From a virus, in IMG/VR virus record IMGVR_UViG_3300045988_148533, positions 32,001 to 96,000 of that record: a stretch of 64,000 nucleotides of DNA. One strand, 5' to 3'. Shown in pieces: positions 4,862 to 54,944 of the stretch. A program made the translations under genes and the position numbers. The stretch's first letter is position 1; each line of letters opens with the position of its first letter. The notes under the pieces were generated by a model that worked only from the letters and a program-made list of their open reading frames with translations, ran no database searches and was not told the origin of the DNA.

Positions 4862-5755
4862 TCAGTAGCAGTTCACAGTCTGACTGCCGTTCTGCAGGGT
4901 GAACGGCCCATATACCCTTCCACCTGCTCCAGGTGCTGTCCACGACTCTGATGACTGAGTAAATCTTATGTAGAAAGTGCCACCCACCATGATGTTGTCC
5001 TGTGTGACCATACTCTGTGACTGACTGAAGTCATAGCCCGACAGAGTGCCTGCCCACTGTTTGATAAAGTTGTTACCCGACTTAGTCATGCCTGTAAATA
5101 GACTCTGGGCTGCTCCCGGAACGCTGTTGTCCGTGCCTATGTATGCTGCATACCATACAGCACCGCCTGTATTGGCTGTAAGGGTATAGCCTGGAGTCAC
5201 TGAGTTGGCCTTCTGGCCGAAGGTGAACCCAACCGTGGAGCCTGTCACCTTATTTGTAAAATAGTATTTGCAGGTTCTTGCAACTGTTCTACCGTTACGT
5301 GTCCATGAAATGCCTGTACTAAACTGTTTCAGAGCAGCAGTATATGTCATATTAGCGGAATCTGTCTCGTCAAATGTCACGAACGGCAGAACAGTTGCAC
5401 CTCCACTGCCTGAATTTGAGCTGATGGTAAAGTGTGCTGCGACATCCTGTGCATTGCCTCCATTTATGTACTTCTTCATGGTTGAAGCAATACATACCAT
5501 AACACTTCCGCCTGCCGCATCCAGTTCACTCATGTCCGGTCCAGGAACCACTGCTGAAAAAATGTTTACGGAGTAGTGACCGTATGTCACTGTGCCTGCG
5601 GCTTGACTTATTGATACGGTTCGGGTCAGACCGCCACCGCTGACGGTGATGGAGGTACTGCGAGAATTCTCAGTGTTATTCTGTGAAGCGGAACAGGTAA
5701 CAGTACCGTTACCGGAACCGCTGTCTGGGGTCGCTGTTATGAAACTTTTCTGCAT
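4862..5755 (-). CDS. BACON/Ig-like N-terminal domain protein, currently expressed variant (V1) of the invertible cassette locus; likely virion surface or receptor-binding protein
   Basis: The N-terminus TPDSGSGNGTVTCSASQNNTENSRSTSITVSGGGLTRTVSISQAAG resembles a BACON domain. The junction QAAGTVTYG is encoded by the 18-nt repeat. The C-terminal end YIRF...RVYGPFTLQNGSQT is shared with cassettes V2 and V3. Confidence 0.75.
   Translation of the reverse strand: MQKSFITATPDSGSGNGTVTCSASQNNTENSRSTSITVSGGGLTRTVSISQAAGTVTYGHYSVNIFSAVVPGPDMSELDAAGGSVMVCIASTMKKYINGGNAQDVAAHFTISSNSGSGGATVLPFVTFDETDSANMTYTAALKQFSTGISWTRNGRTVARTCKYYFTNKVTGSTVGFTFGQKANSVTPGYTLTANTGGAVWYAAYIGTDNSVPGAAQSLFTGMTKSGNNFIKQWAGTLSGYDFSQSQSMVTQDNIMVGGTFYIRFTQSSESWTAPGAGGRVYGPFTLQNGSQTVNCY
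5580..5604 (-). repeat. candidate recombination site A (inside V1 gene, minus orientation)
   Basis: The reverse complement is AAGCCGCAGGCACAGTGACATACGG. The 18-nt core AGCCGCAGGCACAGTGAC (5586-5603) is identical to 5972-5989 and 7195-7212. Confidence 0.8.
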
Positions 5756-5787
5756 AATCGTACGATTTTAGAATTTTATTAATAACG

Positions 5788-5795
5788 CAAAGTTA
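5788..5795 (-). promoter_or_regulatory. -7 box-like TAACTTTG upstream of the BACON-domain gene, inside the putative invertible segment
   Basis: The reverse complement of 5788-5795 is TAACTTTG, 32 nt before the ATG at 5755. No well-spaced -33 element was seen. Confidence 0.35.
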
Positions 5796-5970
5796 GAGGT
5801 TTGCATCGCAAAATAAAACTTACGGTTCAATTCACAGACGAAATGAGTCAAAATACGTCATTATACGGATTTAATTTTCATTTCCATATACATATATCAT
5901 TTATGGTGCGTAAATCCACGTATGAGCTGATTATGCACGACAGAATCCACCTATTGACATCCTTCTCCAG

Positions 5971-5995
5971 AAGCCGCAGGCACAGTGACGTATGG
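5971..5995 (+). repeat. candidate recombination site B (plus orientation, inverted relative to A)
   Basis: AAGCCGCAGGCACAGTGACGTATGG matches site A at 23 of 25 positions. Confidence 0.8.
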
Positions 5996-6674
5996 AGACT
6001 ATCAGTGTACCAACGGCAGCAGCAGTTCATGGGTGATTGACTCAGAAGGTGAAACTATCCGAGTTATTGCCAACAGCAGTAGGATAAAATACATCAACGG
6101 CAGCAGTGTCGGCCGAGAGGCGGTAAGGCCCTCGGCCAGCTTCACCTCTGGCAGTAGCATAGGAACGATTACAGTCGGTGGGCCTACGAGTGGAACCTAT
6201 GCCTACACGATTACTGTCGTGTTTGGATTCAACCCCAGTACTTCCAATCGCAACTGGGGGATAACCGTAAGCAATAGTGGAGCATCCTTCACTTTTAGCG
6301 GTTATCAGTCTCCTAAGGCAAAGTCTGGAACCATCACTTTGAACGCAGGCAGTCAGTCGTGGGTATTTGTGGGCCTGTTTGCCACGAACACAGTTGTGTC
6401 AGCCCTGCCGAGTACCTTTAACAGCCTCACACGTGATTCCGGCAGCAATACATATACCGTCAACTGGACTACAAGTATACAGGTGAATACTTATGTAGGA
6501 ACAACCGCCCATGTCACGGTAGGAAATAACTACTATGTTCGCGTCAGTCAGACTGTGAATGCATGGAATCCCACAAACAGAGTATATGGGCCTTTCGTCC
6601 TAACGGAGGGCTCTAAGACTGAAAATATATCAGGAATACCCATAGGAGGTGGAGGGATTACTCCAGTAGGTTAG
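5985..6674 (+). CDS. silent alternative C-terminal cassette V2 (no ATG, no promoter of its own)
   Basis: The frame opens only 9 codons upstream (TGA at 5955-5957) and reads EAAGTVTYGDY... through the repeat. The only start is the GTG inside the repeat. The C-terminus YYVRVSQTVNAWNPTNRVYGPFVLTEGSKT is paralogous to V1. Confidence 0.6.
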   Translation: MTYGDYQCTNGSSSSWVIDSEGETIRVIANSSRIKYINGSSVGREAVRPSASFTSGSSIGTITVGGPTSGTYAYTITVVFGFNPSTSNRNWGITVSNSGASFTFSGYQSPKAKSGTITLNAGSQSWVFVGLFATNTVVSALPSTFNSLTRDSGSNTYTVNWTTSIQVNTYVGTTAHVTVGNNYYVRVSQTVNAWNPTNRVYGPFVLTEGSKTENISGIPIGGGGITPVG

Positions 6675-7150
6675 ACTATCCTAATGTCAAACTCTCTGCT
6701 CGTCACCCTGCAGAAGTCTCCCGAGGGGGTGAGGCACCACACCTCGGTACGGTCGTCAAAATAGGAGGCGGTGAGCAGTGGCAGCATAATGGAATTGTCC
6801 ACATTCAGAAGCCCCACCTGAGACCCCTCTGGAGACATTACGACAGGAATTACACTTACATCCGCATAGCCTCCACAGCCGAAAGTGCCTTGCAGGGTAT
6901 GTCTCTTTACTGAGATAACAACCCTTTCCAGCTCCGTGGCCCTCTTGCGCTTTTCCCTGAGATAGACGGTAAGCAGCTCATTCTCAGTTATCCTTGTCTG
7001 TGTGCCGAACTTACGTGTATGGATGTTACGCAGGAGCTGTCTCTCATAGGAGTTCAGCTCCTGAAAGTCCTTCTCAAGGACTCTTATAATACTATCGTCC
7101 GTAAGGGCAGATGGATTAGCCCAACCCTGTTTCTTCTTAGTCTTCTTCAT
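6671..7150 (-). CDS. hypothetical protein located between cassettes V2 and V3
   Basis: 159-aa ORF starting MKKTKKKQGW. No recognisable motif and no recombinase signature. Confidence 0.5.
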   Translation of the reverse strand: MKKTKKKQGWANPSALTDDSIIRVLEKDFQELNSYERQLLRNIHTRKFGTQTRITENELLTVYLREKRKRATELERVVISVKRHTLQGTFGCGGYADVSVIPVVMSPEGSQVGLLNVDNSIMLPLLTASYFDDRTEVWCLTPSGDFCRVTSREFDIRIV

Positions 7151-7193
7151 AGTGTAAAAATAACGAATTCCATCCTATGCCATCCTCATTCTT

Positions 7194-7218
7194 GAGCCGC
7201 AGGCACAGTGACGTATGA
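7194..7218 (+). repeat. candidate recombination site C (plus orientation)
   Basis: GAGCCGCAGGCACAGTGACGTATGA carries the identical 18-nt core at 7195-7212. An in-frame TGA sits at 7193-7195, immediately upstream. Confidence 0.8.
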
Positions 7219-7957
7219 GTACTATTTTGATGAGGGTGAAATTCAATATGTAGTTCCATATTATTTTTCCAGTGTTGGAACTACTGCTGAAAGCCCTCTA
7301 AATGCACAGACAGGGCTCATTATGATAAACAGGGTAAAATTTGGAAACTGCAAAGTCATTAATATTGATGGTTCATTGAATAGAACTGTTGGTGTTGGAT
7401 ATTCACTGGAAAATGAAAGCATAGAAGGGTTCTTCAATGTCGGAGATGCAGGATTAGGTGGTCAGCTTCCGAATGGCTATGATGCTTATAAACTCACTGT
7501 AAGCCCCAATCCTGGAACTGCCACAAGACAGAGCAGCTTTGCTTTTGTAACAAATAGATACAGTGGGGATAAAACATCTACGCCTCTGGCAAAACTTTAT
7601 ATATCAGTACGTCAGTGCGGTACGGATGAATATCTTTTGGTTTTTGATGTTTCTAAAAAGAGCAATGTAAAGGGCCTGTGGCTGTTTGCTTCATCAAGTA
7701 TGCCCACAGGCACACCCACATCACAGAATTATTTTATGCCTGACAATCGTATTCCAGTGGATTATGTGACTTGGCATGGAGGTTCATTTGGGAATCTAAA
7801 AGTGAATGCTCTGAGCGGTTCAGCTGCTGGAACTACTGTTGCAGTTGGTTCTACTGTCTATTATAGAGTTTTATATGATGATGACAGTATGTGGGCACAG
7901 TCAGTTCTAAAAAGTTTCACACTGCTTAATTCTGACCAAAAAATAACGCTGCTTTAA
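7208..7957 (+). CDS. silent alternative C-terminal cassette V3
   Basis: It begins with the GTG inside the repeat (MTYEYY), just after a stop codon. The C-terminal end GSTVYYRV...SFTLLNSDQKITLL resembles V1 and V2. The sequence is visibly more A+T-rich than V1 and V2. Confidence 0.55.
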   Translation: MTYEYYFDEGEIQYVVPYYFSSVGTTAESPLNAQTGLIMINRVKFGNCKVINIDGSLNRTVGVGYSLENESIEGFFNVGDAGLGGQLPNGYDAYKLTVSPNPGTATRQSSFAFVTNRYSGDKTSTPLAKLYISVRQCGTDEYLLVFDVSKKSNVKGLWLFASSSMPTGTPTSQNYFMPDNRIPVDYVTWHGGSFGNLKVNALSGSAAGTTVAVGSTVYYRVLYDDDSMWAQSVLKSFTLLNSDQKITLL

Positions 7958-7961: not shown

Positions 7962-8429
7962 TCATGGAATCTGCTTTATTTTACACCGAACTGGTCCAGC
8001 TGTAAAGCCGTTCACCTTTATGTAGTTAGTGTTATTGAGCACCCACACGAGAGCCATATAGAGTGCGTCTATGAAGCATATTCCGTGAATGCTTATTAAT
8101 TCACTTGGGAAGTCCATGCTGCTGTTCAGGAACTCCATGTAGTCATAGGAGACTATATGCTCGGGGTATGATATATTTAGGAAGTACTGATGCTGCCTTT
8201 TATTGTACTCACCGACTATTTCCTGTGGAAGCAGTCTCAGGAGGTCATGAACGGTGAAGACAGGCTCGACGTGGAAGCTGAGCAGCGGTACAAGGTTGCT
8301 TTCATATATGCCGATGACTGGACTGCCTCCGCTGCCTGTACGTATGTAGAGGAGAGCCTCCCTCTTGATGTCAATACCCAGAGACTTCAGCATAAGCATC
8401 TGCTCGGGCTGTAAGTACCATTTTTCCAT
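7962..8429 (-). CDS. hypothetical protein
   Basis: 155-aa ORF in operon-like spacing with its neighbours. Confidence 0.6.
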   Translation of the reverse strand: MEKWYLQPEQMLMLKSLGIDIKREALLYIRTGSGGSPVIGIYESNLVPLLSFHVEPVFTVHDLLRLLPQEIVGEYNKRQHQYFLNISYPEHIVSYDYMEFLNSSMDFPSELISIHGICFIDALYMALVWVLNNTNYIKVNGFTAGPVRCKIKQIP

Positions 8430-41343: not shown

Positions 41344-41840
41344 CTGTAATTCCTCCTTGCATACTCTGCTATCAATAGGCTGTCCGTTAGATTGTCATCA
41401 GGCTTTGTGCATCTTTCACCTCTTCTAAGGTCATGACTGGGAAACAGGCTGCGAGCTGCCATGACGGACATGACTTTCTTGTCCACATTGGGCTTTACGC
41501 CTACATACATCTCCTTCTGCCACTTCTTAGGAGAAATGAGCACGACTGGAAAGCCCACCATGATGAACCCCATCCTGAGGGCATAGCAGATTCCACCGAA
41601 TGTGAACGTTGCACTTGCAGCACTTCCCGGAATTGCATGAACATTCTCTATTGCTACAAGTGTTGATTCCGTGTCCATATTCTCTGCAAGACACAGGATA
41701 AGCTCACTCAGTGCGTGCAGGTCCACCTCATTTTTCTTTGTTGGGATGGGATAATGGGTTATACCACCGTCATCAGTCATGACGGTGATAAACCCCTTCT
41801 TTCCGGGGTCAACCCCTATAATGTTCTTATATCTAATCAT
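41340..41840 (-). CDS. RuvC-like Holliday junction resolvase
   Basis: IIGVDPGKKG carries the first catalytic Asp, VAIENVH the Glu, and the C-terminal DDNLTDSLLIAEYA the Asp pair. The gene is adjacent to the recombination genes. Confidence 0.75.
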   Translation of the reverse strand: MIRYKNIIGVDPGKKGFITVMTDDGGITHYPIPTKKNEVDLHALSELILCLAENMDTESTLVAIENVHAIPGSAASATFTFGGICYALRMGFIMVGFPVVLISPKKWQKEMYVGVKPNVDKKVMSVMAARSLFPSHDLRRGERCTKPDDNLTDSLLIAEYARRNYR

Positions 41841-43839
41841 TTACATTCATTTCTACACGACTGTAACCATCCTCCTTAACAACCGTCATGGTATTGATTC
41901 CAGCACGTATGTTCATAACGTGGCTAATAACGTACACAGGAGATTCTACCTCCTGCAACGATTCAAGCAGCAGTGCAAGGCCAAGAGGGTCTGTACCCTC
42001 AAGAACCTCATCTATCATTAGGAAATGCAGGCCTCCGTATGGATTGGTTGCATTAATCATTTCCTGAAATGCCTGTATAAGTGCCATCTCAATTCTTGCA
42101 CGCTCACCGCCACTGAACGACCAGAAAGACTTATATTCCCCCTCACCATTGATTACAAGAACCGTTATCTCAGACTTCACCTGCCCCTTTGCGTTCACCT
42201 TGAACCCATCGATGGAAAGTCTCAGCTCAGAATGCTGCTTCTGAAGAGAAAGGTTGGCTGCATCCTGAATCAGCTTCAACTGCTCAACGGCCAGAGACAT
42301 CCTGAATTCCTTAAACCGCTGCCCCCACTGCCTCATGTCGCTTATGCAGTTATTCACCTCATCAATCTGTGCCTGCAATTTTTCCTTCTGCTTCTCAGCT
42401 ATTACCAACAGACCCTCAATTTCCTTCTCTCGTGTCTCTATAACGGAATTCTGTGCCTTTTCAAGCTGTACTGCAAGCAGCTCACTTTCCTTGTCATACT
42501 GCTGCATAGCGAGTGTTAGAGAGTCCATCTCCTTTAAATACTGTTCCTTCTCAGCCTCAGCCGTTACAACAGCCCTCTTCAGAGCGGTAATATTTCCCTC
42601 AACCCTGCGTACCTGTTCAAGCGAAAGTTTTTCCTTCCGCCTAAATTCCATGAATTCATCGTTGAATTTCTTCATTCTGGCATTAATATTCTCCTTACGA
42701 GCACTGCATTCAGCCTTTCTGCTCTTAATAGACTCAACGTCCAAATTTGCATCATCAACGGCCCTGTTAATCTCAGCAACGGACATCTCTGAATTAAGCA
42801 CAAATTCATGCTTGCAGTTAGGGCATACTATCCTACTCTCCAAGAGGGAATTCAACTTAGCTATCTTAGTAGTGGCATCATAGTAGGAGGAGGCTATCTG
42901 TCGTTCTTCCTTCTGCACCTTATCCAGTTCACCGCTCATGGCAGTCATATTGCTCTCCACCTTGTTCACCTTCCCCCTCCAGTCGGTGCTGTTCAACTGC
43001 TTCAGCTCCTCAGTGGCAGCATCAATGGCAGCATTCTTCTCATCCATCACCCTGTGCTGCACGGCTATCAGCTGCCTGCATTCCTTAATACGTTCCTTGG
43101 CCCTGTCGTATTTGGCCAGAACGGAGTCAATTTGCCCCTCTATCCCCTCTATAATGGATTGTTTCTCTGCATCAGTGTTACGCTCTCGCTCAGCCTGCAA
43201 CTGCTCACTGTAAGCCTTTATTTGACCCTCAATTCGGTACATTCTTGACGACAGCTCATCAGCCTCAGCCTGCAAGGGCTTCACCTCCTCATTTATCACA
43301 CTATCCGCCTCGTCAAGCCTCTCCACCTTGATGAATCGGTTGATAAGAGCCAGTTTGTCCGTGTTGGAGGCGGTAATAAATGACCTATAATTCTCCTTGT
43401 TCAGAATATAGTAGTTCTTCAAGTCCTCAACGCTTATGCCTACCCATCGAATGATATAGGCATTACCGTCATTTACGGTTGCAAACGACACGGCCTCATC
43501 ATTGATGAACAGTTCCAGACTTGCAGAACCCTTCACCCTTAGAGTGCGGTGTATCGTCAGCGTCTGCTTTCTCATGGGACATTCTATGTAGAGCCATATC
43601 TCAGCTTCTGACTCACCCCACGTTATCAACTCCCTGTCAAGTGTCTGCTTCCTAAGTGCTGATGCAAAGAGGGCATAGGCTATACCAGCCTCCAGAGTGC
43701 TCTTTCCAGAACCATTCGTCTCCTTTGACTCAGGCTCCGAAAGATTCCTACCCTGTACAAGCAGAGGCCCATTCACGAAGGAATGGTCAAGTTCCCTGAA
43801 TGACAGGAAATTCTTCAACTTTATTCTTACAAGTCTCAT
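41833..43839 (-). CDS. sbcC: SbcC/Rad50-family ATPase (gp46-like)
   Basis: The N-terminus is LKNFLSFRE...NGSGKSTLEAGIAYALF (Walker A). A long coiled coil carries the CPNC zinc hook. FSGGERARIEMAL is the signature motif and LMIDEVLEGTD is Walker B. Confidence 0.85.
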   Translation of the reverse strand: MRLVRIKLKNFLSFRELDHSFVNGPLLVQGRNLSEPESKETNGSGKSTLEAGIAYALFASALRKQTLDRELITWGESEAEIWLYIECPMRKQTLTIHRTLRVKGSASLELFINDEAVSFATVNDGNAYIIRWVGISVEDLKNYYILNKENYRSFITASNTDKLALINRFIKVERLDEADSVINEEVKPLQAEADELSSRMYRIEGQIKAYSEQLQAERERNTDAEKQSIIEGIEGQIDSVLAKYDRAKERIKECRQLIAVQHRVMDEKNAAIDAATEELKQLNSTDWRGKVNKVESNMTAMSGELDKVQKEERQIASSYYDATTKIAKLNSLLESRIVCPNCKHEFVLNSEMSVAEINRAVDDANLDVESIKSRKAECSARKENINARMKKFNDEFMEFRRKEKLSLEQVRRVEGNITALKRAVVTAEAEKEQYLKEMDSLTLAMQQYDKESELLAVQLEKAQNSVIETREKEIEGLLVIAEKQKEKLQAQIDEVNNCISDMRQWGQRFKEFRMSLAVEQLKLIQDAANLSLQKQHSELRLSIDGFKVNAKGQVKSEITVLVINGEGEYKSFWSFSGGERARIEMALIQAFQEMINATNPYGGLHFLMIDEVLEGTDPLGLALLLESLQEVESPVYVISHVMNIRAGINTMTVVKEDGYSRVEMNVND

Positions 43840-44795
43840 ATTGTCTGCATTATGGCATCCTCAATTTCGTTGAACAACTTAGGGTCTGCGAGCAGTGTCT
43901 CTCGTGCCTTTTCCAACCCCTGTCCGATGTTTCTGCCCTTGTAGTTGTAAAAACTGCCTTTCTTGTCAATAATCTCCTTTTCACAGCCAATGGCAAGCAG
44001 TTCTCCAGCCCTGTCAATACCCTCACCGAAGCGAATGTCAAATTCCGCCTTGCGGAATGGCGGTGCAACCTTGTTCTTCTCAACCTTGACCTTGATGTGA
44101 TTGGCCACCTCCTCACCCTTGTCACCTATCACACCGCTCTTTGCAATGTCAAGTATCTGTGAGGAATAGAATCCAAGGGCCTTACCTCCAGGAGTTGTCT
44201 TGGGGTTCCCATACACGACACCTATCTTGTCACGATACTGATTAATGAAAAGTACCAACTGACTGTTTCTCTTTATATCACCTATAAGTCCGGGAAGCCA
44301 CGTAGCCATCAAGCGAGCCAGAACACCCATCTTTGCATCACCCACGTCAGCCTCAAGATAGCACTTAGGAAACATAGCAGCAACTGAATCAAGCACTACA
44401 CCGCCAATCTCCTTGGAGCGACACGCCTCACGCATCAGCTCAAAGCACTCCTCTGCCACTCCGGGCTGACTGAGTATGAACTTGTTAGGAGAAATATCCA
44501 CGCCAAGAGCCTCAACATAGTCCATGTCAATAGCATTTTCCCTGTCTATATAGAGTACTGCCTTACCTGTATTTTCCTGAATGCTTCGGCAGGCTGTAAG
44601 GGCCAGTGTCGTCTTTCCGGATGACTCATACCCTCGCAGTTCCACAATTCTTCCAAGCGGATAGCCTCCTCCAAGAGCTATGTCCAGCCCCAGACTGCCT
44701 GAGGATATGAACTCTATGCCCTGTTGATTGTTTCCGGAAACAATTTCCTTTCCGAACTTTTTCTGAAGTAAACTTACAAAATCCTCTACTCCCAT
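43836..44795 (-). CDS. recA: RecA-family recombinase
   Basis: ISSGSLGLDIALGGGYPLGRIVELRGYESSGKTTLAL is collinear with the RecA N-terminal core. FINQYRDKIGVVYGNPKTTPGGKALGFY corresponds to the L2 region. Confidence 0.88.
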   Translation of the reverse strand: MGVEDFVSLLQKKFGKEIVSGNNQQGIEFISSGSLGLDIALGGGYPLGRIVELRGYESSGKTTLALTACRSIQENTGKAVLYIDRENAIDMDYVEALGVDISPNKFILSQPGVAEECFELMREACRSKEIGGVVLDSVAAMFPKCYLEADVGDAKMGVLARLMATWLPGLIGDIKRNSQLVLFINQYRDKIGVVYGNPKTTPGGKALGFYSSQILDIAKSGVIGDKGEEVANHIKVKVEKNKVAPPFRKAEFDIRFGEGIDRAGELLAIGCEKEIIDKKGSFYNYKGRNIGQGLEKARETLLADPKLFNEIEDAIMQTI

Positions 44796-45823
44796 TGCAT
44801 TATCTGATTTAATATTAATAACCCCTCCTCAACATCATACCCCTTATCCTCACAGAACGACTTGAACTTGTCAGCAATATCACCGTCACTCAGCTCTCTG
44901 CACACGGCCTCCTCGGTAACAGTACCGTCAACCTCAACGTCATTATATTTTGTCTTAACGGATATACCCTTATCCGTAAACATCTTCTTATTCACACCCT
45001 TGATGGACTGTTGGTCTCCCTTCAGCGTCACACGCAGATGTACACCCTCCGTTGACTCCTCAGCAACAGCCTTGATGTCCTCACGACTTGCCGTCAGGGT
45101 ATCAATCACTATCTCTCGATAGGGTGTGAAGTCAGACCTCAGGAGGTCAAACGACAGGTCATCATACAGCACGGTGAAGCCCTTGTCCTCATCCTCACCG
45201 AAGTTGTTCTGAATAACACTCGGCAGATGAAACACATTTCTCGCAGGCTGCTGTGCATTGTGATAATGCCCGAGAAATACCCTGTCAAAATCCTTGAACA
45301 TGGACGCCTTGATGCTGCTCTGAACAGTGCTGCCGTCATTGTTGATGGAACCCTCTATTGCCGTATGGCTGAACAGAATACTTCCATTGCCATGACCCAG
45401 ACCCTGTATTGAATTGAAATGTCGTATCCATGTCTCGGTAGCATAGAAAGGAACGAAATACACTGCTACACCCTTAATTAGCACCCCTGTTTCCTTTTCA
45501 TACAGATGGAAATTAGGGTGGTATCGGTAAGGAGTAAGGAAGGATTCATCAGCAGTATAGTCTGTTTTGTCATGATTTCCTGGAATGCAGTGTACGGAAA
45601 GGCCCTGATTGGTATGAATGTCTATAACCGCATCAAAACAGTTCAGCATATCCTGCCTCTGGCTGACACGGCTGTCAAACATATCCCCGAGCCATATCAC
45701 ATCCCGTACTTTCAGCCTTTCCGCCAGAGCCGCCTCCTGACGAGCAACATCGAGAAGCTCAGAGGCATTTGTCTCCTTGAGATGCCAATCCGTACTAATT
45801 ATTGCTATTGGTTTCTTACTCAT
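44786..45823 (-). CDS. sbcD: SbcD/Mre11-family nuclease (gp47-like)
   Basis: The calcineurin-like phosphoesterase motifs are present: STDWH, GDMFD, GNHD and GHYH. The start was set to the ATG at 45823 (MSKKPIAII), because the longer form overlaps the upstream gene. Confidence 0.85.
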   Translation of the reverse strand: MSKKPIAIISTDWHLKETNASELLDVARQEAALAERLKVRDVIWLGDMFDSRVSQRQDMLNCFDAVIDIHTNQGLSVHCIPGNHDKTDYTADESFLTPYRYHPNFHLYEKETGVLIKGVAVYFVPFYATETWIRHFNSIQGLGHGNGSILFSHTAIEGSINNDGSTVQSSIKASMFKDFDRVFLGHYHNAQQPARNVFHLPSVIQNNFGEDEDKGFTVLYDDLSFDLLRSDFTPYREIVIDTLTASREDIKAVAEESTEGVHLRVTLKGDQQSIKGVNKKMFTDKGISVKTKYNDVEVDGTVTEEAVCRELSDGDIADKFKSFCEDKGYDVEEGLLILNQIMQWE

Positions 45824-45884
45824 ATTTTCTTTTTGAAAAAGAGGGGGCTGGTGTGCCCCCTCAGGAATGTATATAGGCAGAAAA

Positions 45885-47270
45885 TTAGGACTTCTTCTGT
45901 CGTGCCTCACGCATCTTACGTATGCGCTCTATTGCACTCATGGCAGAATCACTGCTCTCAGCGGATACACCGTCGGCTTCCTCGGGTTCAGGCTCAGGCT
46001 GAGGCTTAGGCCTTGCAGCAGGCTTCGGCTTAGGCTTTGCCTCCACAGCAGGAGCATCCCAGCCCTCAAGATGAGGTCTGTCATACCCCAAATCCTCCTT
46101 CTTGAGTGCCACAGGGTACAGTTCCTCAACCTCATCAGGTTCCGGCTCATAGTCATACTCGTCACCGTACTGCCGAATGAACTCGGCTATCACAACCTGT
46201 TTCTTCTCCTCAGGTGTAGGTTCAGCAGGCTGAGGGGCTGCTTTCTTCTTCATAAGGGGCTTCTTTGCAGGTGCAGGAGCAGCCTCAGCGGCAGGGTCAG
46301 GGAAAGGCAGATTGTCCTCTCTGTCGGAGGTATCAGCACCACTCTTTTCCTCAACGGCCTTCTGAAGCTCCTCAACCATGTCCAGATACTCCTCATCGGC
46401 GAAAATCTTATACACGTTTTCCTCGTCGAACCGCTTCAACCCCTCAAGTGCGAGATTGAAGTCACGAATGCCGTAGCAGTCCACATACAGCTTCTGAAGC
46501 GAAGGATATGTTTCCAGTTCCTCAAGAATCTTGTCAGGTACGGCATTCTTCTCGAAATAGTCCTCCCATGTCTGACCCATCTTCAAAGGTAGAGCCTTGA
46601 TTGTCTCAACCGTCTTGTTGTTGTCATCCTTGCTCCTATCCCACTGAAGAGGAAAACCAGTGTTAGGGTCGCTGAACATATCTATTGCAGCGGTATCGTT
46701 CTGCGCACACAGGTCAGCGGACTCCTTGTTAAGGGCCTCCATCTGCTTAGGCTTCAGTGAATCCCTGTACACCTTGCCCTCTATGTAGGCATAGTAGACA
46801 TATTCCAGCTGTGGACGGATTCCGGGAACCCACGTACCGTTCTTACCGCCCATCCTATATCCTGTGATAGGATTGAGGAATCTGGAACGTTCATCCTTAT
46901 CCTGAATCTGTTCAGCCTTTTCGTACACCCTCTTAATGTACTCCTCAACTATGTCATAGGGGTAATGGCCGTGCAGGGTGGCCAAGAAAATTTTCTTATT
47001 GACGATTTTCTTACCGATTACATTGCCGTCCTTGTCCTTGTCATCAGCAACGCACTTGAGCATCGTTGTGAGCATCGGCACATAGGGGGAATCTCCTGCA
47101 ACGTGTGCTGGAAGCACTCTCTTAATTGTAATACCGTCTCTGTTTTTCCAAAACGGTGCATAATCACCCTTGTTTCCACCAAAGTATGTGTCATAGGGCT
47201 TCGTCTGTGCCACTGTATCATTCACTGTTGAAAGAGGAGCGGCTCTGTACTTGTTTCTGTCAAATGCCAT
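45885..47270 (-). CDS. hypothetical protein with Pro/Ala/Glu-rich acidic C-terminal region (position compatible with an ssDNA-binding or accessory replication protein; not demonstrated)
   Basis: 461-aa ORF. The C-terminal low-complexity region reads PAAEAAPAPAKKP...PKPKPAARPKPQPEPEPEE. Confidence 0.65.
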   Translation of the reverse strand: MAFDRNKYRAAPLSTVNDTVAQTKPYDTYFGGNKGDYAPFWKNRDGITIKRVLPAHVAGDSPYVPMLTTMLKCVADDKDKDGNVIGKKIVNKKIFLATLHGHYPYDIVEEYIKRVYEKAEQIQDKDERSRFLNPITGYRMGGKNGTWVPGIRPQLEYVYYAYIEGKVYRDSLKPKQMEALNKESADLCAQNDTAAIDMFSDPNTGFPLQWDRSKDDNNKTVETIKALPLKMGQTWEDYFEKNAVPDKILEELETYPSLQKLYVDCYGIRDFNLALEGLKRFDEENVYKIFADEEYLDMVEELQKAVEEKSGADTSDREDNLPFPDPAAEAAPAPAKKPLMKKKAAPQPAEPTPEEKKQVVIAEFIRQYGDEYDYEPEPDEVEELYPVALKKEDLGYDRPHLEGWDAPAVEAKPKPKPAARPKPQPEPEPEEADGVSAESSDSAMSAIERIRKMREARQKKS

Positions 47271-48105: not shown

Positions 48106-50127
48106 TTACATTAACGCAAATATCAGCATTCGTGTTGTCATATCAGCACGAATTATGTTCACACCTTTCTTGCTGTCGTTGGACAGTGAACCATTAATTA
48201 GAATAATGTTGCTCTTAGCCTTTTTCACGAACTCCTGAAGCCTGTCATAATCCCCTCCAAATATCAGGACTTCTATGAACTCATAGTTGCTTTCAAGCGT
48301 CATCTTGCAGAATGTCTTAGGGGCTGTTCTACGACCACCCTTTGTCGTCTTAACCTCAACATCAGCCACATAACCACCCACAACAACCATTCCTTCTCCA
48401 GCCTTGACTTTCCGAGAGGTATCATTGCACTGCTCCACCGTCACATAGGAATACTCATCTGGGAAGCTACCTCTGTTATTCTCATACAGCCTATCATACC
48501 TGAAGAACGCGAACCCAGAAAGCTGCTTCTGCATAAGTCGCCACCACCACCCATCCTCACGATGCACGTATGCACCATTGAGGAGAGGGTCACTGTCATC
48601 AATCTTAATCCTGTTCTTCTCAAAATACCTTCGCAGCAGAGACACCCTTTCCCGTACATCGGTAATGTTCTCTATGCTGTCAAACGCACCGCTCAGAATG
48701 AGGTTCTTAATTACTCGGCTGTTCACTGCCGTACCCTTCCAGTTATGGCGACTGACAAAGTCCTCAATTGACCAGTACTGCCCATTCTCATCTCTCTCCT
48801 TGAGTATCTGGTCAGCAGCCTTGTCGGCTACCTGTTTAACACCCATAATTGACCAATATAAAGACTGTGTCTTAAAGTCTATCACAACATTCTTAGTAGA
48901 GATGTTAATATCCACAGGTTTCACTTCACACACGCCTGTCTTATTAATCTCAGCAATATAGCGTGGATAGTCATCATCCGTAGCATACTTAAAGGCCACA
49001 CTCCAGTACTCAATAGGATAATGAACTTTCAGCCACTGAGATATATACCCTGTAATTGCATAGGCAGCTGCGTGACTCCGATTAAATAGGTAGAGGGATG
49101 CTTTATCAATAGCTTCCCACACACTCTCAGCATAATCATGGCTGACGCCAAAATGCTCCATATAATATGGGGTGAACCTCTCATGATACTGATGCAGTGC
49201 CTCATATTTCTTCTTCACCATCGCCTTACGCACATCATCAGCCTCAACCAATGACAAACCTCCTAAAACCTTACACAACTCCATAACAGACTCCTGATAT
49301 ATCACAAGGCCAAATGTCTTCTCAAGCACTTTTTCAGCACCCACCCAATATTTCACCTTACTCGGGTCTGCCTTACGAATAATATAATCCTCATGGAATC
49401 CATTCTCCATTGCTCCAGGACGATATAGGGAAATGGCAGCTATCAGGTCTTCAATGTTGCGTGGCTGCATCTGCTTACAGTATCCAGTCAACCCTCTACT
49501 GCCAAAGTGGAAATTATCCTCATTCCAGCCGTTGCAGAAATACCTGTACACCTCTCTATCATCAAGAGGTGTGCTGTATATATCCACGTCCACACCCTCA
49601 TTCTCCTTTATTAAGGTAATCATCTCCTGAAACTTATCCAGCTGCTTCACACCCAGAATATCCTGTTTCAAGAATCCAGCACTGTCCATCTCACCACCTT
49701 CCCATTCGCTGACATATTCCTCACCCTGTTTTCTGATTGGAACCCAGTGGAACATATCGTGTTCCTTAGGAAAAATCATCGTAGCACAGGCATGAATGGA
49801 CTGTGCCTTGGGGGCAGGCATAAGCAGCATCACCTCATTCACTATATCAGGGTGCTCTGTCACGAATTTCTTAACATTCTCATCCGCACAGGCTATCTTG
49901 AACAGGTCTTCCGGCTTACGGTCACTAACATCAAATACTTTCATCATCTCATTCACCGTCTGGAATTCCAACCCGTATATTCTGGACATGTCCTTAATGG
50001 CCGCTCGCAGTTGCAGTGCGCTGTACGTACCCACGGAACATACTCTACTCCACCCGTATCGTTCTTCCATATATTTCTTCACCCGAGGTCTATCAACCGA
50101 GGGGAAGTCAACATCGATTTCACTTCG
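48106..50127 (-). CDS. dnaE: DNA polymerase III alpha subunit (DnaE-type), downstream exon: catalytic Asp motif, palm, fingers and C-terminal OB region
   Basis: The track ORF (GTG at 50082) reads MKKYMEERYGWSRVCSVGTYSALQLRAAIKDMSRIYG..., then LYRPGAME and HAAAYA. My upstream translation of the same frame gives GRSEIDVDFPSVDRPRV, which is the PDxDxDF-type catalytic motif. No start codon lies between it and the TAA at 50137-50139. The 5' boundary (about 50125-50127) is inferred. Confidence 0.75.
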   Translation of the reverse strand, partial: RSEIDVDFPSVDRPRVKKYMEERYGWSRVCSVGTYSALQLRAAIKDMSRIYGLEFQTVNEMMKVFDVSDRKPEDLFKIACADENVKKFVTEHPDIVNEVMLLMPAPKAQSIHACATMIFPKEHDMFHWVPIRKQGEEYVSEWEGGEMDSAGFLKQDILGVKQLDKFQEMITLIKENEGVDVDIYSTPLDDREVYRYFCNGWNEDNFHFGSRGLTGYCKQMQPRNIEDLIAAISLYRPGAMENGFHEDYIIRKADPSKVKYWVGAEKVLEKTFGLVIYQESVMELCKVLGGLSLVEADDVRKAMVKKKYEALHQYHERFTPYYMEHFGVSHDYAESVWEAIDKASLYLFNRSHAAAYAITGYISQWLKVHYPIEYWSVAFKYATDDDYPRYIAEINKTGVCEVKPVDINISTKNVVIDFKTQSLYWSIMGVKQVADKAADQILKERDENGQYWSIEDFVSRHNWKGTAVNSRVIKNLILSGAFDSIENITDVRERVSLLRRYFEKNRIKIDDSDPLLNGAYVHREDGWWWRLMQKQLSGFAFFRYDRLYENNRGSFPDEYSYVTVEQCNDTSRKVKAGEGMVVVGGYVADVEVKTTKGGRRTAPKTFCKMTLESNYEFIEVLIFGGDYDRLQEFVKKAKSNIILINGSLSNDSKKGVNIIRADMTTRMLIFALM

Positions 50128-51220
50128 CCCCCACCATTACTGATGGGGGCATAACATCAGGCAGGGATACCGGAACGAATCCCTGCCTGAACTCCTTTTC
50201 AATTTTTACTATTTTCGACATACTTAAAAAATTTACCTATCTGCCCTGAATATAACCCCATTTCCTTCATACCATTAGAATCATACCCCTGTTTCCAAAG
50301 CTGAACCATGCGGTATGCACCATAATATTTGGAGTCACACTCATTTAATATATAACGTTCTATCTCCTTTTGCGTAGACAATTTTCTGTCCGAAATTAAA
50401 TATCTATATTTACGAATTTTCTTCAACCCATACATTCCAAGAAAATCCGCTTCACGCATATAACTGTAAAAATTACATTCCCCTGTCCATAAATCATACA
50501 CCCAACATGATTTCGCCTTCACATTTTTACCGCCCTTGCTTTTACCATTCTCCCTTCTCTTAATGGAAAGATTTTTCTTTTGTTCATCAGTCCATCTACG
50601 ACCATAATTAGGATTGGTCTCACCCTCAAAACGCGGAGGAAGCCCACCTCCCACCATCATATTTAAAACATCTGGTCGAGAAATAAAGGCCTCATCCACA
50701 ATCCTCGCTTCGGACTCTAAAGCATCCTTAATGGAATGAAAATAACAAATAATCCTCTTTTTAAAATTCAAGTACCCATATTGTAGCAATGCTTTTCTAA
50801 ATTTCGTTTCCTTCTCCTTATGACGTTTATATAAAACACCGCTTTTCCTTATTAAACACCCATTCCCTATATAAGTGTCAAATTCCGGGTGTAACCCCTT
50901 ATAAACCCTGACACCAATATAAATATCATTAGTTATTACACACTTGGTTTCGTACAAATAAACCACGCGACGACCACCCAAATCAACGGGTATTTCAGAA
51001 TAATTAATACACTTGCTTAAATAGTCCATAATTCAATAAATTTAAGCAAACACTAAAGTCAAAATCAATAAGCAAGCAATTCGTCATTGACTTTAAAATC
51101 CTTTGCCTTGGCAATTATCTTATTTCCACCCCTGAACAAAACAAGTTCTTTATTTTCATCAAATTCCAAGATTCTGCCATTATCAAGAGTAATTTTAACA
51201 ATATTCTGCTTACGTACATA
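50128..51220 (-). mobile_element. intervening sequence in dnaE (probable group I intron, boundaries +/- about 5 nt) carrying a GIY-YIG homing endonuclease gene
   Basis: The exon 1 frame reads ...LLFERFLNKGRVG and then diverges from DnaE. The exon 2 frame resumes at (G)RSEIDVDF. Candidate splice points follow a U (51221 or 51225) and a G (50128 or 50126). Two strong hairpins lie in the 3' part at 50163-50194 and 50128-50151. Confidence 0.55.
50199..51029 (-). CDS. GIY-YIG homing endonuclease (I-TevI-like)
   Basis: VVYLYETKCVITNDIYIGV is the GIY-x10-YIG element, with conserved Arg and Glu downstream (FRKAL, ESEARIV). The C-terminal part is a basic, NUMOD-like linker region. The gene is A+T-rich. 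Confidence 0.8.
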   Translation of the reverse strand: MDYLSKCINYSEIPVDLGGRRVVYLYETKCVITNDIYIGVRVYKGLHPEFDTYIGNGCLIRKSGVLYKRHKEKETKFRKALLQYGYLNFKKRIICYFHSIKDALESEARIVDEAFISRPDVLNMMVGGGLPPRFEGETNPNYGRRWTDEQKKNLSIKRRENGKSKGGKNVKAKSCWVYDLWTGECNFYSYMREADFLGMYGLKKIRKYRYLISDRKLSTQKEIERYILNECDSKYYGAYRMVQLWKQGYDSNGMKEMGLYSGQIGKFFKYVENSKN

Positions 51221-52675
51221 ACCAACTCGGCCCTTATTCAAGAACCTTTCAAACAGCAGCCCATACTCCAGAGGGTCAAGTTTTGTAATCCCTATAAGAT
51301 AGGAAATAAGACATCCTCCAGCACTGCCCCTACTTATACCTGTCAATATGCCGTTTTCATGACACCAATTGACAATGTCTCGAGTTATTAGGAAGTAGTC
51401 AATTACATTACCGAACTTAATCACGTCTATTTCCCTCTCTAATCGCTCCAATACGACATCTTCACCCCACCTGTCAACCAACTCAGGATGAGCAGCCAGA
51501 CCTTCCTCTATGAGGCCTAAAAACATCTCCTCATTGGTTGTGTACTTAGCAGCCTCATCAGGCTTCATCTCGTACTTAGGAAGATGCCTGTTGGCTGTGT
51601 CTATCGTAAAGTCACACCCATCCGCAATGTCATTCAACAGCTGCATTGACTCGAGAAACAACTCTGCACCCACCTCTTCTTCAGAGAATAACTGCAAGAA
51701 TTCCTCATACACAGCCTCATTTGACTTAAAATACTGATTATCACTTGCATACCCCATTCTGCCTGCAATACGATGCAGCCTATCCGGAATATCCGCATAT
51801 TCAGCATCTATGTACCATGCATCACTAAACACCAGAGGCACAAGATTAGTGTCATAGAAGAATTTCTTAAGGTTCTTCAAGTACCACTCATCATGCCTCT
51901 CATCACTGTAAGCACACGTGTCAAGCTGATAGAAAGCTGTATCAATATTCGCCTTACGAAATTCTTCGTAATCAAGTGTCTTAGGGTCAAGAATAACAGT
52001 AATATCATCATTGTTTCCTACAATTTCCCTAAATCTGTCAAGTGCCACCCACCCTGAATTGACACAGTTAATCTCAGTGTTGATTGTTAAAAGGGTCTGC
52101 CACCCTTCAAAATTTCGGGCATAGACTTTCACTACAAAACGCACATCACTGTCAATGTCATACACGGTACACCCCATCCCGATGATGGGTTTAATGCCGA
52201 ACTTCTGACATTCCATCTGAAATTTTAAAGCCCCTGCAAGAGAATTAACTTCACAGACACCCAGATTCCTTACCCCAAGAAACTTAGCCTTGCGACACCA
52301 ATCCGTGTAAGTACCGCTTCCTGAAAGAATCTCATACTGTCCATGAACCCCCAAAAAAGTGTCCGTAGGAAGAGGAAAGGTACTTTCACCGAGGTATTTC
52401 AGCCTGTTCAACTTGACATCATTCTCCTGCCCCCTGTCCAGCCAGTACCACACCCCTCCGAACCTATACACGTACCTGTCGGCAAGTGTTTCATTATCCT
52501 CATGTGGTTCAGTGTTGTATGGCTTGCCTATAAAGCAAAAGCCGTCATCAAACAGTGAACCGTCATCGGCAGGCACATACAGCTCATACGTCCTGTCCCC
52601 TATTTCCACAACGGCATCAGACACCTCTGTGTAGGCTATACCATTTTCCTTGAGATATGCTATCAGTTCTTCCAT
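51221..52675 (-). CDS. dnaE: DNA polymerase III alpha subunit (DnaE-type), upstream exon: PHP domain and start of palm
   Basis: FLGVHGQYEILSGSGTYTDWCRKAKFLGVRNLGVCEVNSLAGALKF is the PHP domain. ISRGSAGGCLISYLIGITKLDPLEYGLLFERFLN is collinear with the bacterial DnaE RGSAAGSLVAY..GIT..DP....LLFERFLNPER. The ORF reads through to the stop at 51065, but homology ends near 51221. Confidence 0.8.
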
Positions 52676-54942: not shown

Positions 54943-54944
54943 AA

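What the first reader, a model, noticed from the sequence alone, without database searches (positions are those of the whole stretch)
4862..7957. Shufflon-like inversion locus that could swap the C-terminal domain of a BACON-domain protein among three cassettes
The 18-nt sequence AGCCGCAGGCACAGTGAC, with near-identical flanks giving 23-25 nt in total, occurs three times.

- **Site A (5586-5603):** lies on the minus strand inside gene 4862..5755. It sits exactly where the about 50-aa BACON-like N-terminal domain ends, encoding QAAGTVTYG.
- **Sites B (5972-5989) and C (7195-7212):** lie in the opposite orientation.

Each plus-strand copy forms the first codons of an ORF (5985..6674 and 7208..7957). 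Both ORFs continue the same reading frame (AAGTVTY...). Both have an in-frame stop just upstream (TGA at 5955-5957, six codons before the repeat, and at 7193-7195, directly abutting it). Neither has an ATG or a recognisable promoter, and both end with a C-terminal segment paralogous to the expressed gene (Y[IVY]R...VYGPF.L..GS.T).

The 370-bp segment between A and B carries the ATG, the N-terminal exon and a TAACTTTG -7-like box. An A x B inversion would therefore point promoter plus N-domain into cassette V2. An A x C inversion would join it to V3.

This is the logic of Mu Gin/G, P1 Cin/C, p15B Min and the R64 shufflon, here applied to a Bacteroidota-style BACON protein. No serine or tyrosine recombinase gene is recognisable anywhere in these 64 kb, so the enzyme is unknown. 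The small gene 6671..7150 sits inside the larger invertible segment.
Basis: partly seen in the sequence, partly recalled or inferred. Interest (0 to 1): 0.88.

Follow-up and report, generated by a model that had tools for sequence, protein, structure and literature searches.

The report
Invertible cassette locus in gut phage
A roughly 100-kb human-gut phage carries a three-site DNA-inversion locus that can attach different C-terminal domains to one BACON-domain protein; relatives show such flips have occurred, yet no invertase gene is found in the phage.

Summary
The 18-mer AGCCGCAGGCACAGTGAC occurs exactly three times: once on the minus strand and twice on the plus strand. About 0.08 matches are expected by chance.

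- **Site A** sits where the Pfam BACON domain of gene 4862..5755 ends.
- **Sites B and C** head two intact, in-frame ORFs (V2 and V3). Neither has a promoter box, and each has a stop codon just upstream.

Comparative data support the shufflon reading:
- One relative (L024) is colinear with the window only after an in-silico A×C inversion, and its breakpoints lie inside the sites.
- A fourth cassette type (V4) is silent and inverted in one relative, and fused to the N-exon in many others.
- The silent cassettes V2 and V3 evolve under purifying selection (dN/dS 0.10-0.36), like the expressed V1.
- A sister clade has a larger locus with up to six sites. Two of its genomes differ by exactly three inversions at the repeats.

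No serine or tyrosine recombinase was detected across almost the whole genome. The repeat sequences differ between lineages and even within one locus. The phage also encodes RecA and SbcCD-like proteins. I therefore favour homology-driven inversion, but only weakly. N+V2 and N+V3 fusions were never observed. This is a new variant of a known kind.

The parts
4862..5585 (-). V1: the C-terminal cassette currently joined to the N-exon (the expressed state, S0).
   Evidence: It is part of the 297-aa ORF. The identical protein, P0008, occurs on 4 contigs of about 100 kb. dN/dS between lineages is 0.17-0.36.
5586..5603 (-). Site A: the 18-mer inside the expressed gene, coding AAGTVT at the end of the BACON domain.
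   Evidence: Exact copy. It is arm 1 of inverted repeats I2 and I3. The 18-mer is invariant in 13 intact copies from 5 lineages.
5603..5627 (-). Last 25-26 nt of the N-exon (TGACCCGAACCGTATCAATAAGTCAA, coding TRTVSISQ). It is single-copy in the window. In relative L003 it forms a second inverted-repeat pair that heads the silent cassette V4.
   Evidence: L003 I3: 26 nt, 100% complementary.
5604..5755 (-). Constant N-exon: ATG plus the BACON domain.
   Evidence: Pfam PF13004 matches residues 4-52. The exon is 84-98% identical across relatives that carry very different C-termini.
5756..5971 (.). Promoter region carried on the A-B invertible segment. It holds the -7-like box TAACTTTG at 5788-5795(-).
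   Evidence: The box keeps the TAnnTTTG consensus in relatives: TAATTTTG in L003, TATATTTG in L012 and TAACTTTG in L024.
5972..5989 (+). Site B: the 18-mer heading V2. An in-frame TGA lies at 5955-5957.
5973..6674 (+). V2: a silent cassette of 233 codons counted from the site. It is a full-length paralogue of the V1 C-terminal part.
   Evidence: It is intact in 5 lineages, with dN/dS 0.14-0.36 for most pairs. It is 28% identical to V1, E 1e-13. It is only ever found unfused.
6671..7150 (-). The small 159-aa orphan gene, which travels with the promoter and N-exon inside the A-C segment.
   Evidence: It is inverted together with the N-exon in L024. It lies directly upstream of the BACON gene in relatives without cassettes. 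In the sister clade it lies inside the invertible segment. It has no Pfam or PDB match, and no conserved Ser, Tyr, Arg or His.
7151..7194 (+). Cassette leader upstream of site C. It overlaps the 5' region of the small gene and is homologous to the leader upstream of site B.
   Evidence: D1: 57 nt, 75% identity.
7195..7212 (+). Site C: the 18-mer heading V3. A TGA at 7193-7195 abuts it.
7196..7957 (+). V3: a silent cassette of 253 codons counted from the site. It is unrelated to V1 and V2 beyond AAGTVTY.
   Evidence: It is intact in 3 lineages, with dN/dS 0.10-0.18. It shows no similarity to V1 or V2. In L020 and L012 it has been deleted, leaving a scar. It is only ever found unfused.
41833..45910 (-). 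The phage's own general-recombination genes: SbcC/Rad50-like (41833..43839), RecA (43836..44795) and SbcD/Mre11-like (44786..45910). These are candidate machinery for the inversions. This is inferred, not shown.
   Evidence: Pfam RecA 1.3e-78, SMC_N 3.1e-6, Metallophos 6.7e-6.

Best explanation
**What it is.** The locus is a multiple-inversion cassette system, a shufflon in logic. It belongs to a roughly 100-kb myovirus-like phage of human-gut Bacteroidota.

**Layout.** A constant module holds the promoter, the ATG and a 51-codon BACON domain. It ends in an 18-bp sequence. The same 18 bp, in the opposite orientation, heads two promoterless, ATG-less cassettes (V2 and V3).

**How it would switch.**
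- Recombination between site A and site B flips the 370-bp promoter/N-exon segment and joins it in frame to V2.
- Recombination between A and C flips 1.6 kb (N-exon, promoter, V2 and the small gene) and joins the N-exon to V3.
- This gives four topological states and three alternative proteins. The constant BACON domain would carry a swappable C-terminal domain, presumably a ligand-binding one.

**Shown.**
- The anatomy described above.
- An A×C-type inversion with breakpoints in the sites has happened in a related lineage.
- Cassette types alternate between silent and expressed positions among relatives.
- The silent cassettes are kept under purifying selection.

**Inferred.**
- No dedicated invertase performs the exchange. 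The phage's general recombination machinery (RecA with SbcCD-like nuclease), or replication-linked template switching, acts on short perfect inverted repeats.
- Switching is therefore rare, producing minority variants, rather than a fast phase-variation switch.
- The protein is a virion-associated adhesin whose specificity changes.
For: **Anatomy.**

**A natural A×C product.** L024 matches the window in the forward orientation in both flanks, but in reverse over 5587-5954 and 6653-7217. It becomes fully colinear with the in-silico A×C inversion. Its N-exon is fused at the partial site to a cassette at the V3 position. A decayed V1 stub, a degenerate site and decayed V2 remnants lie where that state predicts them.

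**V4 alternates between silent and expressed.** V4 is silent and inverted behind a stop codon in L003. It is fused to the N-exon in L012-L018 and L240-L249.

**Selection on silent cassettes.** dN/dS is 0.14-0.36 for most V2 pairs and 0.10-0.18 for V3, against 0.17-0.36 for V1.

**Sister clade.**
- Its intragenic inverted repeat lies at codon 91 and heads a silent cassette.
- A locus has up to six s/r sites.
- L107 becomes colinear with L098 in a single 11.4-kb HSP after exactly three in-silico inversions at those repeats.

**For a homology-driven mechanism.**
- No recombinase family turned up in the window ORFs, the flanks or the sister-clade tail module that closes the circle.
- Unrelated repeat sequences are used: the 18-mer and a 26-mer in L003, s and r in the sister clade, and a 41-50-nt repeat in L115.
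- The repeats are always perfect but vary in length from 18 to 36 nt.
- The two synonymous sites just after the 18-mer show the same state in all copies of a genome. The s arms stay identical within each genome while differing between genomes.
- The phage encodes RecA and SbcCD-like proteins.
- The sites have no consistent dyad symmetry.
Against: **Fusions never seen.** N+V2 and N+V3 fusions were not found among homologues. They were also absent as exact predicted chimeras for four genomes among about 15 billion proteins. Every assembly that holds V2 or V3 is in state S0.

**The 18-mer looks like a recognised site.** It is invariant in 13 intact copies from 5 lineages, at five four-fold-degenerate positions, although dS between those lineages is 0.1-0.5. 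That pattern suggests a protein-recognised site rather than a mere stretch of homology.

**Repeat length.** 18 bp is short for RecA-type recombination (established knowledge of minimal homology lengths).

**Recombinase not excluded.** Many phage ORFs have no detectable family, so a novel recombinase cannot be ruled out. A host invertase cannot be ruled out either.

**Cassette loss is common.** Scars occur in L020 and L012, decay in L024, and cassette-free loci in L013-L018 and L240-L249.

**Function unknown.** The AlphaFold2 model of V1 was unusable (pLDDT 34), so the role of the variable domain is not known.
Confidence: 0.68

Rival explanations
1. The cassette switch is the same, but a sequence-specific recombinase catalyses it. 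That enzyme would be either an unrecognised phage protein or a host Bacteroidales invertase, and the 18-mer would act as an sfx-like site: a conserved core plus right arm, with an unconserved left arm.
For: - The 18-mer is invariant in all 13 intact copies from 5 lineages, while neighbouring synonymous positions vary and dS is 0.1-0.5.
- The upstream boundary of identity is sharp, and the left flanks are unrelated.
- The size matches the 19-bp sfx repeats of R64 (my own knowledge).
- All characterised shufflons have a recombinase, including the BV01-like phage tail-fibre shufflon (PMC13596623).
- Many phage ORFs remain unassigned.
Against: - No Resolvase, Phage_integrase, transposase or PHROG integration/excision family appears anywhere in the roughly 100 kb reconstructed.
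- The gene always linked to the locus, small159, has no conserved Ser, Tyr, Arg or His and no recombinase-like fold.
- Unrelated repeats are all associated with rearrangements: the 26-mer in L003, and s and r in the sister clade, which share only a 6-mer.
- No pairs of the 18-mer occur in 185,579 reference genomes. The 28 matches are all single and scattered across taxa, at roughly chance level.
Confidence: 0.3
2. V2 and V3 are ordinary stand-alone genes translated from their GTG codons. The shared 18-mer would be a conserved 5' coding or initiation element, and the rearrangements seen in relatives would be occasional accidents at repeated sequences rather than a switch.
For: - V2 and V3 are only ever seen unfused.
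- Gene callers call them from GTG or from internal starts.
- Purifying selection fits independent expression equally well.
- The 216-bp region 5756-5971 could hold a divergent promoter.
Against: - No TAnnTTTG box lies upstream of either ORF on the plus strand.
- An in-frame stop sits 0-6 codons before the repeat in every lineage.
- V3 shares nothing with V1 except the joint sequence, so the repeat is a junction and not shared ancestry.
- The V4 cassette in L003 has no plausible full-length start, yet the same domain is expressed as an N-exon fusion elsewhere.
- The breakpoints in L024 and in L098/L107 fall exactly in the repeats and keep the reading frame.
Confidence: 0.12
3. The exchange is non-reciprocal gene conversion from silent cassettes into the expression site, as in pilE/pilS or vlsE, rather than inversion.
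For: - The cassettes are promoterless and lack their 5' ends.
- The phage encodes RecA.
- The flanks of the 18-mer show at least one homogenisation event across paralogous copies.
Against: - The observed differences between genomes are reciprocal inversions that carry the intervening small gene and promoter with them.
- There is no useful 3' homology between V1 and V3, and only 72% identity over 43 nt between V1 and V2 (I1).
- The cassettes lie in inverted orientation, as inversion requires.
Confidence: 0.05

Closest known systems
Invertible tail-fibre segments of phage Mu (Gin/G), P1 (Cin/C), e14 (Pin) and p15B (Min multiple inversion)
   Same: - A constant N-terminal part is joined by DNA inversion to alternative C-terminal parts that lie in opposite orientation.
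- The crossover site lies inside the coding sequence.
- The sister-clade genome L115 even has the Mu-like layout, with the constant part outside a segment that holds two cassettes.
   Different: - There is no serine invertase gene (no Resolvase or HTH_7 hit anywhere).
- The sites are not dyad-symmetric 26-bp gix-like sequences.
- In the window the promoter and N-exon are what flips.
- The protein is a 297-aa BACON-domain protein, not a recognised tail fibre.
- The phage has no integrase and appears virulent.
R64/IncI shufflon (Rci tyrosine recombinase, 19-bp sfx repeats, pilV C-terminal switching)
   Same: - Three or more short repeats (18 bp here, 19 bp in R64) lie in both orientations.
- The left arms are unconserved.
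- Several alternative C-termini can join one constant N-terminus.
- The sister clade has up to six sites and nested segments.
   Different: - There is no rci-like gene.
- Different, unrelated repeat families are used in the same locus.
Tail-fibre shufflon of BV01-like temperate Phocaeicola vulgatus phages (PMC13596623, preprint 2026)
   Same: - The host is Bacteroidaceae.
- It is phage-encoded.
- Several cassettes remodel the C-terminus of a putative carbohydrate-binding protein.
   Different: - The BV01 locus is flanked by a recombinase and uses a 10-bp motif, TGGGAGAACT. That motif is absent from this locus, and no recombinase is present.
- The phage lineage is different: a roughly 100-kb phage with SPO1-like and DAC-like capsid relatives.
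Bacteroidales intragenic invertons and SusC/D or hsdS shufflons (PMC9881135, PMC10028968)
   Same: Gene-altering inversions occur at short inverted repeats inside coding sequences, in the same host phylum.
   Different: Those loci are chromosomal and typically lie next to a Tsr or other tyrosine or serine invertase. This one lies in a phage genome with none.

Membership tests
Serine-invertase tail-fibre switches (Gin/Cin/Pin/Min/Hin) | A small serine recombinase gene (Resolvase plus HTH) lies next to or inside the invertible segment. | tested here: not met
   There is no Resolvase or HTH_7 hit in the locus, the rest of the window, the flanks or the sister-clade tail module. PHROGs gives no integration/excision family apart from one weak excisionase hit (E 0.02) on small159.
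Serine-invertase tail-fibre switches (Gin/Cin/Pin/Min/Hin) | The crossover sites are about 26 bp, imperfectly dyad-symmetric and have a 2-bp core. | tested here: not met
   The 18-31-nt repeats show no significant self-complementarity (z-score 0.13 for site A and 0.68 for the 26-mer). The left flanks are unrelated.
Serine-invertase tail-fibre switches (Gin/Cin/Pin/Min/Hin) | A constant N-terminal coding part is joined in frame to alternative inverted C-terminal parts. | tested here: met
   the natural fusion in L024.
Rci-type shufflon (R64) | An Rci-family tyrosine recombinase gene lies next to the shufflon. | tested here: not met
   No Phage_integrase family hit appears in any Pfam scan (same calls as for the serine-invertase gene test above).
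Rci-type shufflon (R64) | Three or more copies of a repeat of about 19 bp occur in both orientations and delimit segments, with an asymmetric conserved part. | tested here: met
   The window holds three exact 18-mers, one on the minus strand and two on the plus strand. The conserved part is asymmetric: the left flanks differ and the right flanks are partly shared. Only the architecture matches. Similarity to the sfx sequence itself was not tested.
Rci-type shufflon (R64) | Different arrangements coexist within one population (active switching). | not testable with these tools
   No read data are available. Only consensus assemblies could be compared: state S0 in the window, L001-L003, L020 and L025, and the inverted state in L024.
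BV01-like phage tail-fibre shufflon | Directional TGGGAGAACT motifs separate the cassettes, and a recombinase flanks the locus. | tested here: not met
   The motif is at chance level in the window and absent from 4.8-8 kb. No recombinase is present.
Diversity-generating retroelement | A reverse transcriptase and a template/variable repeat pair with adenine-specific differences. | tested here: not met
   No RVT family appears in the Pfam scans that gave complete lists. The list was cut off at 25 of 49 families, but most of those ORFs were covered again. The repeats are short, exact and inverted.
Silent-cassette gene conversion (pilE/pilS, vlsE) | Transfer is non-reciprocal and leaves the donor cassette and its orientation unchanged. 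| tested here: not met
   The differences between related genomes are reciprocal inversions that include the intervening genes.

The most novel reading that the evidence does not exclude
A family of abundant human-gut phages maintains nested shufflons with several sites on a BACON-domain protein, without any dedicated invertase. In this reading, short perfect inverted repeats at domain boundaries are kept identical by selection and gene conversion, and the phage's own RecA/SbcCD-type machinery flips them. That would be a recombinase-free programmed inversion system. Alternatively, the enzyme belongs to an undescribed recombinase family hidden among the orphan ORFs.
Probability: 0.4. Interest if true: 0.85.

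Novelty: new variant of a known kind. Interest (0 to 1): 0.66.

Why it matters
**Biological setting.** Bacteroidales hosts keep changing their capsules and surface proteins through their own DNA inversions. A phage-side cassette switch on a glycan-binding-type protein would be the matching counter-move, and here it sits in a widespread, uncultured family of roughly 100-kb gut phages.

**Practical value.** The locus gives a defined set of natural domain swaps: at least six C-terminal types on one N-terminal BACON module. These can be tested for adsorption and host range.

**Mechanistic value.** If no invertase exists, programmed inversions could be kept up by general recombination at repeats of 18-36 bp. 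That would change how such loci are searched for, because current screens rely on a neighbouring recombinase gene.

Tried and rejected
**Searches that found nothing related**
- Megablast of the locus against GenBank phages gave no match.
- Scans for the 18-mer or a 23-mer in IMG/VR, JGI/ENA metagenome contigs and GTDB genomes gave only single matches. The metagenome and IMG/VR hit loci showed no similarity to the locus by blastn. The genome hits lie in scattered taxa at roughly chance level.
- Searching IMG/VR with small159 as a single query found nothing.
- The predicted chimeric proteins were absent from the 15-billion-protein collection.

**A lead that turned out not to be evidence**
- The 1231-bp Logan contig L019 looked like an assembly break caused by mixed orientations. 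Identical sequence at both its ends points to a direct repeat of about 51 nt in the cassette leaders (inferred), which would break a k=31 assembly graph. It is therefore not evidence of inversion.

**small159 as the invertase: rejected**
- The family is an orphan with 18 cluster representatives.
- It has no Pfam or PDB match.
- The model is low-confidence, with a helical N-terminus and a small beta-barrel. The best fold hit has E 0.15.
- There is no invariant catalytic-type residue.
- It is also present in relatives without cassettes.

**Other tests**
- The AlphaFold2 model of V1 was too poor for a fold search (pLDDT 34).
- Dyad symmetry of the sites is not significant.
- The 18-nt inverted repeat near the 3' ends of V1 and V2 (4872-4889 / 6542-6559) was considered as a second-tier site. 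I dismissed it because the V2 motif is not conserved in relatives.
- A resemblance to the host Mpi-type motif was considered from memory only. It does not fit site A.

Full report
**1.

The 18-mer AGCCGCAGGCACAGTGAC occurs at 5586-5603(-), 5972-5989(+) and 7195-7212(+), with no further match even when 3 mismatches are allowed. Shuffled sequence gives 0.08 matches on average. The inverted repeats extend to 30-31 nt at 83-87% complementarity.

Gene 4862..5755(-) encodes 297 aa, and Pfam BACON matches residues 4-52 (E 2.4e-8). Site A codes AAGTVT directly after that domain. Sites B and C open ORFs that continue AAGTVTY in frame. In-frame TGA codons lie at 5955-5957 and 7193-7195.

The only Bacteroidota-type -7 box (TAnnTTTG) in the locus is TAACTTTG at 5788-5795(-), upstream of the BACON ATG. 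None precedes V2 or V3. The box keeps its consensus in relatives even though the bases differ.

**2. What the window is**

The window is about two thirds of a roughly 100-kb phage genome. The identical V1 protein lies on contigs of 99.6 and 103.3 kb, which start at different points and so suggest a circular or terminally redundant genome. A relative lies on a contig of 100.9 kb.

The window encodes:
- a split DNA pol III alpha;
- RecA, SbcC-like and SbcD-like proteins;
- UvrD and SNF2 helicases, an NAD-dependent ligase and RNase H;
- a class II ribonucleotide reductase, a chaperonin and a sigma factor;
- a 5-hmdU DNA kinase pair and a Rep3-type initiator.

Beyond the left end lie the portal and the capsid protein. 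Beyond the right end lie an intein-containing terminase and adhesin-like proteins. The capsid protein is 36% identical to those of Bacteroides phages DAC16-23 and about 30% identical to SPO1-like phages. Its closest records come from human faeces.

**3. Relatives show that the inversion happened**

I built the predicted A×C product in silico and compared both versions with relatives.
- L003, L020, L025 and L012 are colinear with the window as it stands.
- L024 (Logan SRR7457754, 32 kb) matches the window in the forward orientation in both flanks, but in reverse over 5587-5954 and 6653-7217. It is fully colinear with the A×C-inverted version, and the breakpoints fall inside sites A and C.

Reading L024 directly gives this order:
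1. the peptidase gene;
2. a 19-codon V1-like stub pointing left;
3. a degenerate site with 4 mismatches;
4. the leader and the small gene pointing right;
5. decayed V2 remnants pointing left;
6. the promoter and N-exon pointing right;
7. the first 11 nt of the site;
8. a different cassette (V5; the product is 173 aa);
9. the same downstream sequence that follows V3 in the window.

This is the predicted S3 state, apparently locked by decay of the unused parts.

**4. Cassettes alternate between silent and expressed**

L003 carries a fourth cassette, V4, between the promoter and V2. It is inverted and preceded by a stop codon. It is not headed by the 18-mer. Instead it is headed by the adjacent 26 nt of the N-exon, TGACCCGAACCGTATCAATAAGTCAA, which is 100% identical to L003's own N-exon. 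In the window this sequence is single-copy.

The same V4 domain is fused to the N-exon as a 345-aa protein in L012-L018 and L240-L249, which have no silent cassettes.

L012 and L020 keep a scar at the V3 position. The scar consists of site C joined to the last 60 nt or so of V3, through a deletion at the microhomology GGCACAGT.

In total, at least six C-terminal types are found on an N-exon that stays 84-98% identical: V1a, V1b, V2, V3, V4 and V5.

**5. Silent cassettes are functional sequence**

V2 is an intact ORF in five lineages and V3 in three. dN/dS is 0.14-0.36 for most V2 pairs and 0.10-0.18 for V3. That is the same range as the expressed V1 (0.17-0.36) and the small gene (0.08-0.26), at dS values up to 0.5-0.6.

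**6. A sister clade has a larger version**

IMG/VR phages whose capsid protein is 87-90% identical have a BACON N-terminus only about 53% identical. They carry a different intragenic inverted repeat of 28-34 nt (TAAACGGAGTCGAAACATCAACCCAGGA) at codon 91. Its partner lies about 0.9 kb upstream and heads a silent cassette behind a stop codon.

A second repeat family, r (25-36 nt, coding GVSLSQAA), lies at the end of a second BACON-like module. It gives up to six sites per locus.

L098 and L107 have colinear flanks that are 95-97% identical, but they express different cassettes. Three in-silico inversions at r and s turn L107 into a single 11.4-kb colinear match to L098.

L115 has yet another repeat (41-50 nt) in a Mu-like layout.

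**7. The enzyme**

No serine or tyrosine recombinase, transposase or integrase family was detected in any of the following:
- the locus;
- the other window ORFs of 110 aa or more;
- the precomputed gene tables of the flanks;
- the roughly 20-kb tail module, read from the sister clade and joined to the right flank by tblastx.

The small 159-aa gene is always linked to the BACON gene, and in the sister clade it lies inside the invertible segment. It is nevertheless not a credible recombinase:
- It also occurs in relatives without cassettes.
- It belongs to an orphan family with 18 representatives among 1.84 billion proteins.
- It has no Pfam or PDB match.
- It has no invariant Ser, Tyr, Arg or His.
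- Its low-confidence model shows helices plus a small beta-barrel, with no significant fold match.

Arguments for homology-driven inversion:
- Unrelated repeats are all associated with rearrangements.
- The repeats are always perfect but differ in length.
- The two synonymous positions after the 18-mer (ACA TAC or ACG TAT) show the same state in all copies of L003, L020 and L025. This needs at least one homogenisation event.
- The s arms stay identical within each genome while differing between genomes, including at one non-synonymous site.
- The phage encodes RecA and SbcCD-like proteins.

Arguments for a sequence-specific enzyme:
- The 18-mer is invariant in 13 intact copies from 5 lineages, at five four-fold-degenerate positions, although dS is 0.1-0.5.
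- 18 bp is short for RecA-type recombination.

I rate homology-driven inversion as somewhat more likely than an unknown or host recombinase. This step is inference.

**8. What is not shown**

N+V2 and N+V3 fusions were never found. They are absent among homologues and as exact predicted chimeras for four genomes. All assemblies that hold V2 or V3 are in state S0.

No read data were available, so active switching within a population is untested.

The function of the protein is unknown. There is no PHROG match, and the V1 model is unusable.

The contig L019, which at first looked like an assembly break caused by mixed orientations, is more simply explained by an inferred direct repeat of about 51 nt in the cassette leaders.

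**9. Comparison with known systems and verdict**

The logic is that of Mu G, P1 C, p15B Min and the R64 shufflon. The closest ecological parallel is the recently described tail-fibre shufflon of BV01-like phages, which is flanked by a recombinase (PMC13596623). Its site motif is absent here.

Membership in the Gin/Cin or Rci families fails on the defining recombinase gene.

I found no paper that describes an inversion locus on a phage BACON protein.

This is a real inversion-cassette locus, and a new variant of a known kind. It is notable for three things: the missing invertase, its spread and elaboration across a family of gut phages, and the protein it diversifies.

Noticed in passing
window 48106-52675 (-): The DNA polymerase III alpha gene is split. 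The PHP/NTPase part is at 51065..52675 and the finger/HHH part at 48106..50082. A 276-aa homing endonuclease gene at 50199..51029 separates them (phrog_314, E 1.4e-18).
   Followed up: partly
window 60860-64000 (-), continuing beyond the window end: The large terminase subunit carries an intein (Hint plus LAGLIDADG domains). The full gene product is 1118 aa in L023.
   Followed up: no
window 53312-57799 (-): This is a thymidine hypermodification cluster: 5-hmdU DNA kinase domains (HMUD2 at 55960..56700, HMUDK_hel at 54945..56066), a thymidylate-synthase-like gene, a YfbR-like nucleotidase and a dCTP deaminase/dUTPase. It fits the distant SPO1-like capsid relationship.
   Followed up: no
window 41833-45910 (-): The phage has its own homologous-recombination set: SbcC/Rad50-like, RecA (E 1.3e-78) and SbcD/Mre11-like proteins. 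UvrD, SNF2, an NAD-dependent ligase and RNase H lie just beside it at 32.4-38.2 kb.
   Followed up: partly
window 2246-3046 (+) and 4212-4805 (+): A plasmid-type Rep3_N replication initiator and a papain-family cysteine peptidase flank the locus. Both are conserved next to it in all relatives.
   Followed up: no
window 21443-22069, 27998-29578, 29651-31987, 38476-39975 (-): The phage encodes an ECF-type sigma factor, a GroEL-like chaperonin, a class II (B12-dependent) ribonucleotide reductase and a 499-aa protein with a zeta-toxin domain.
   Followed up: no
L020 5143-5210; L012 9266-9200 (-); compare window 7195-7212 and 7896-7957: V3 has been deleted in two relatives, leaving site C fused to the last 60 nt or so of V3. 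The deletion joins the GGCACAGT inside the site to the same 8-mer near the end of V3.
   Followed up: yes
L098 5464-8580; L107 5016-8150 (IMG/VR sister clade): This is a nested shufflon with two repeat families. The s repeat lies at codon 91. The r repeat codes GVSLSQAA at the end of a second BACON-like module. There are up to six sites per locus. L098 and L107 differ by exactly three inversions.
   Followed up: yes
L032 15559-16191 (+) (sister clade tail module): A second, 211-aa BACON-like protein lies among the tail genes. It sits next to a 1294-aa protein with eight Flg_new_2 repeats, so BACON modules may be part of the virion's adhesion apparatus.
   Followed up: no
window 7955-7979 / 8071-8095: A 25-nt inverted repeat (88% complementary, 91 nt apart) starts at the V3 stop codon and lies within the 3' part of gene 7962..8429 (I4). 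Its meaning is unknown.
   Followed up: no
window 5946-6002 vs 7169-7225; L003 8822-8870; L019 ends: Each silent cassette is preceded by a homologous leader of about 40 nt (TCCAYCYTAT..ATCCT..), which resembles the 5' region of the small gene. In one sample the B and C leaders appear to be identical over about 51 nt, inferred from the matching ends of contig L019.
   Followed up: partly
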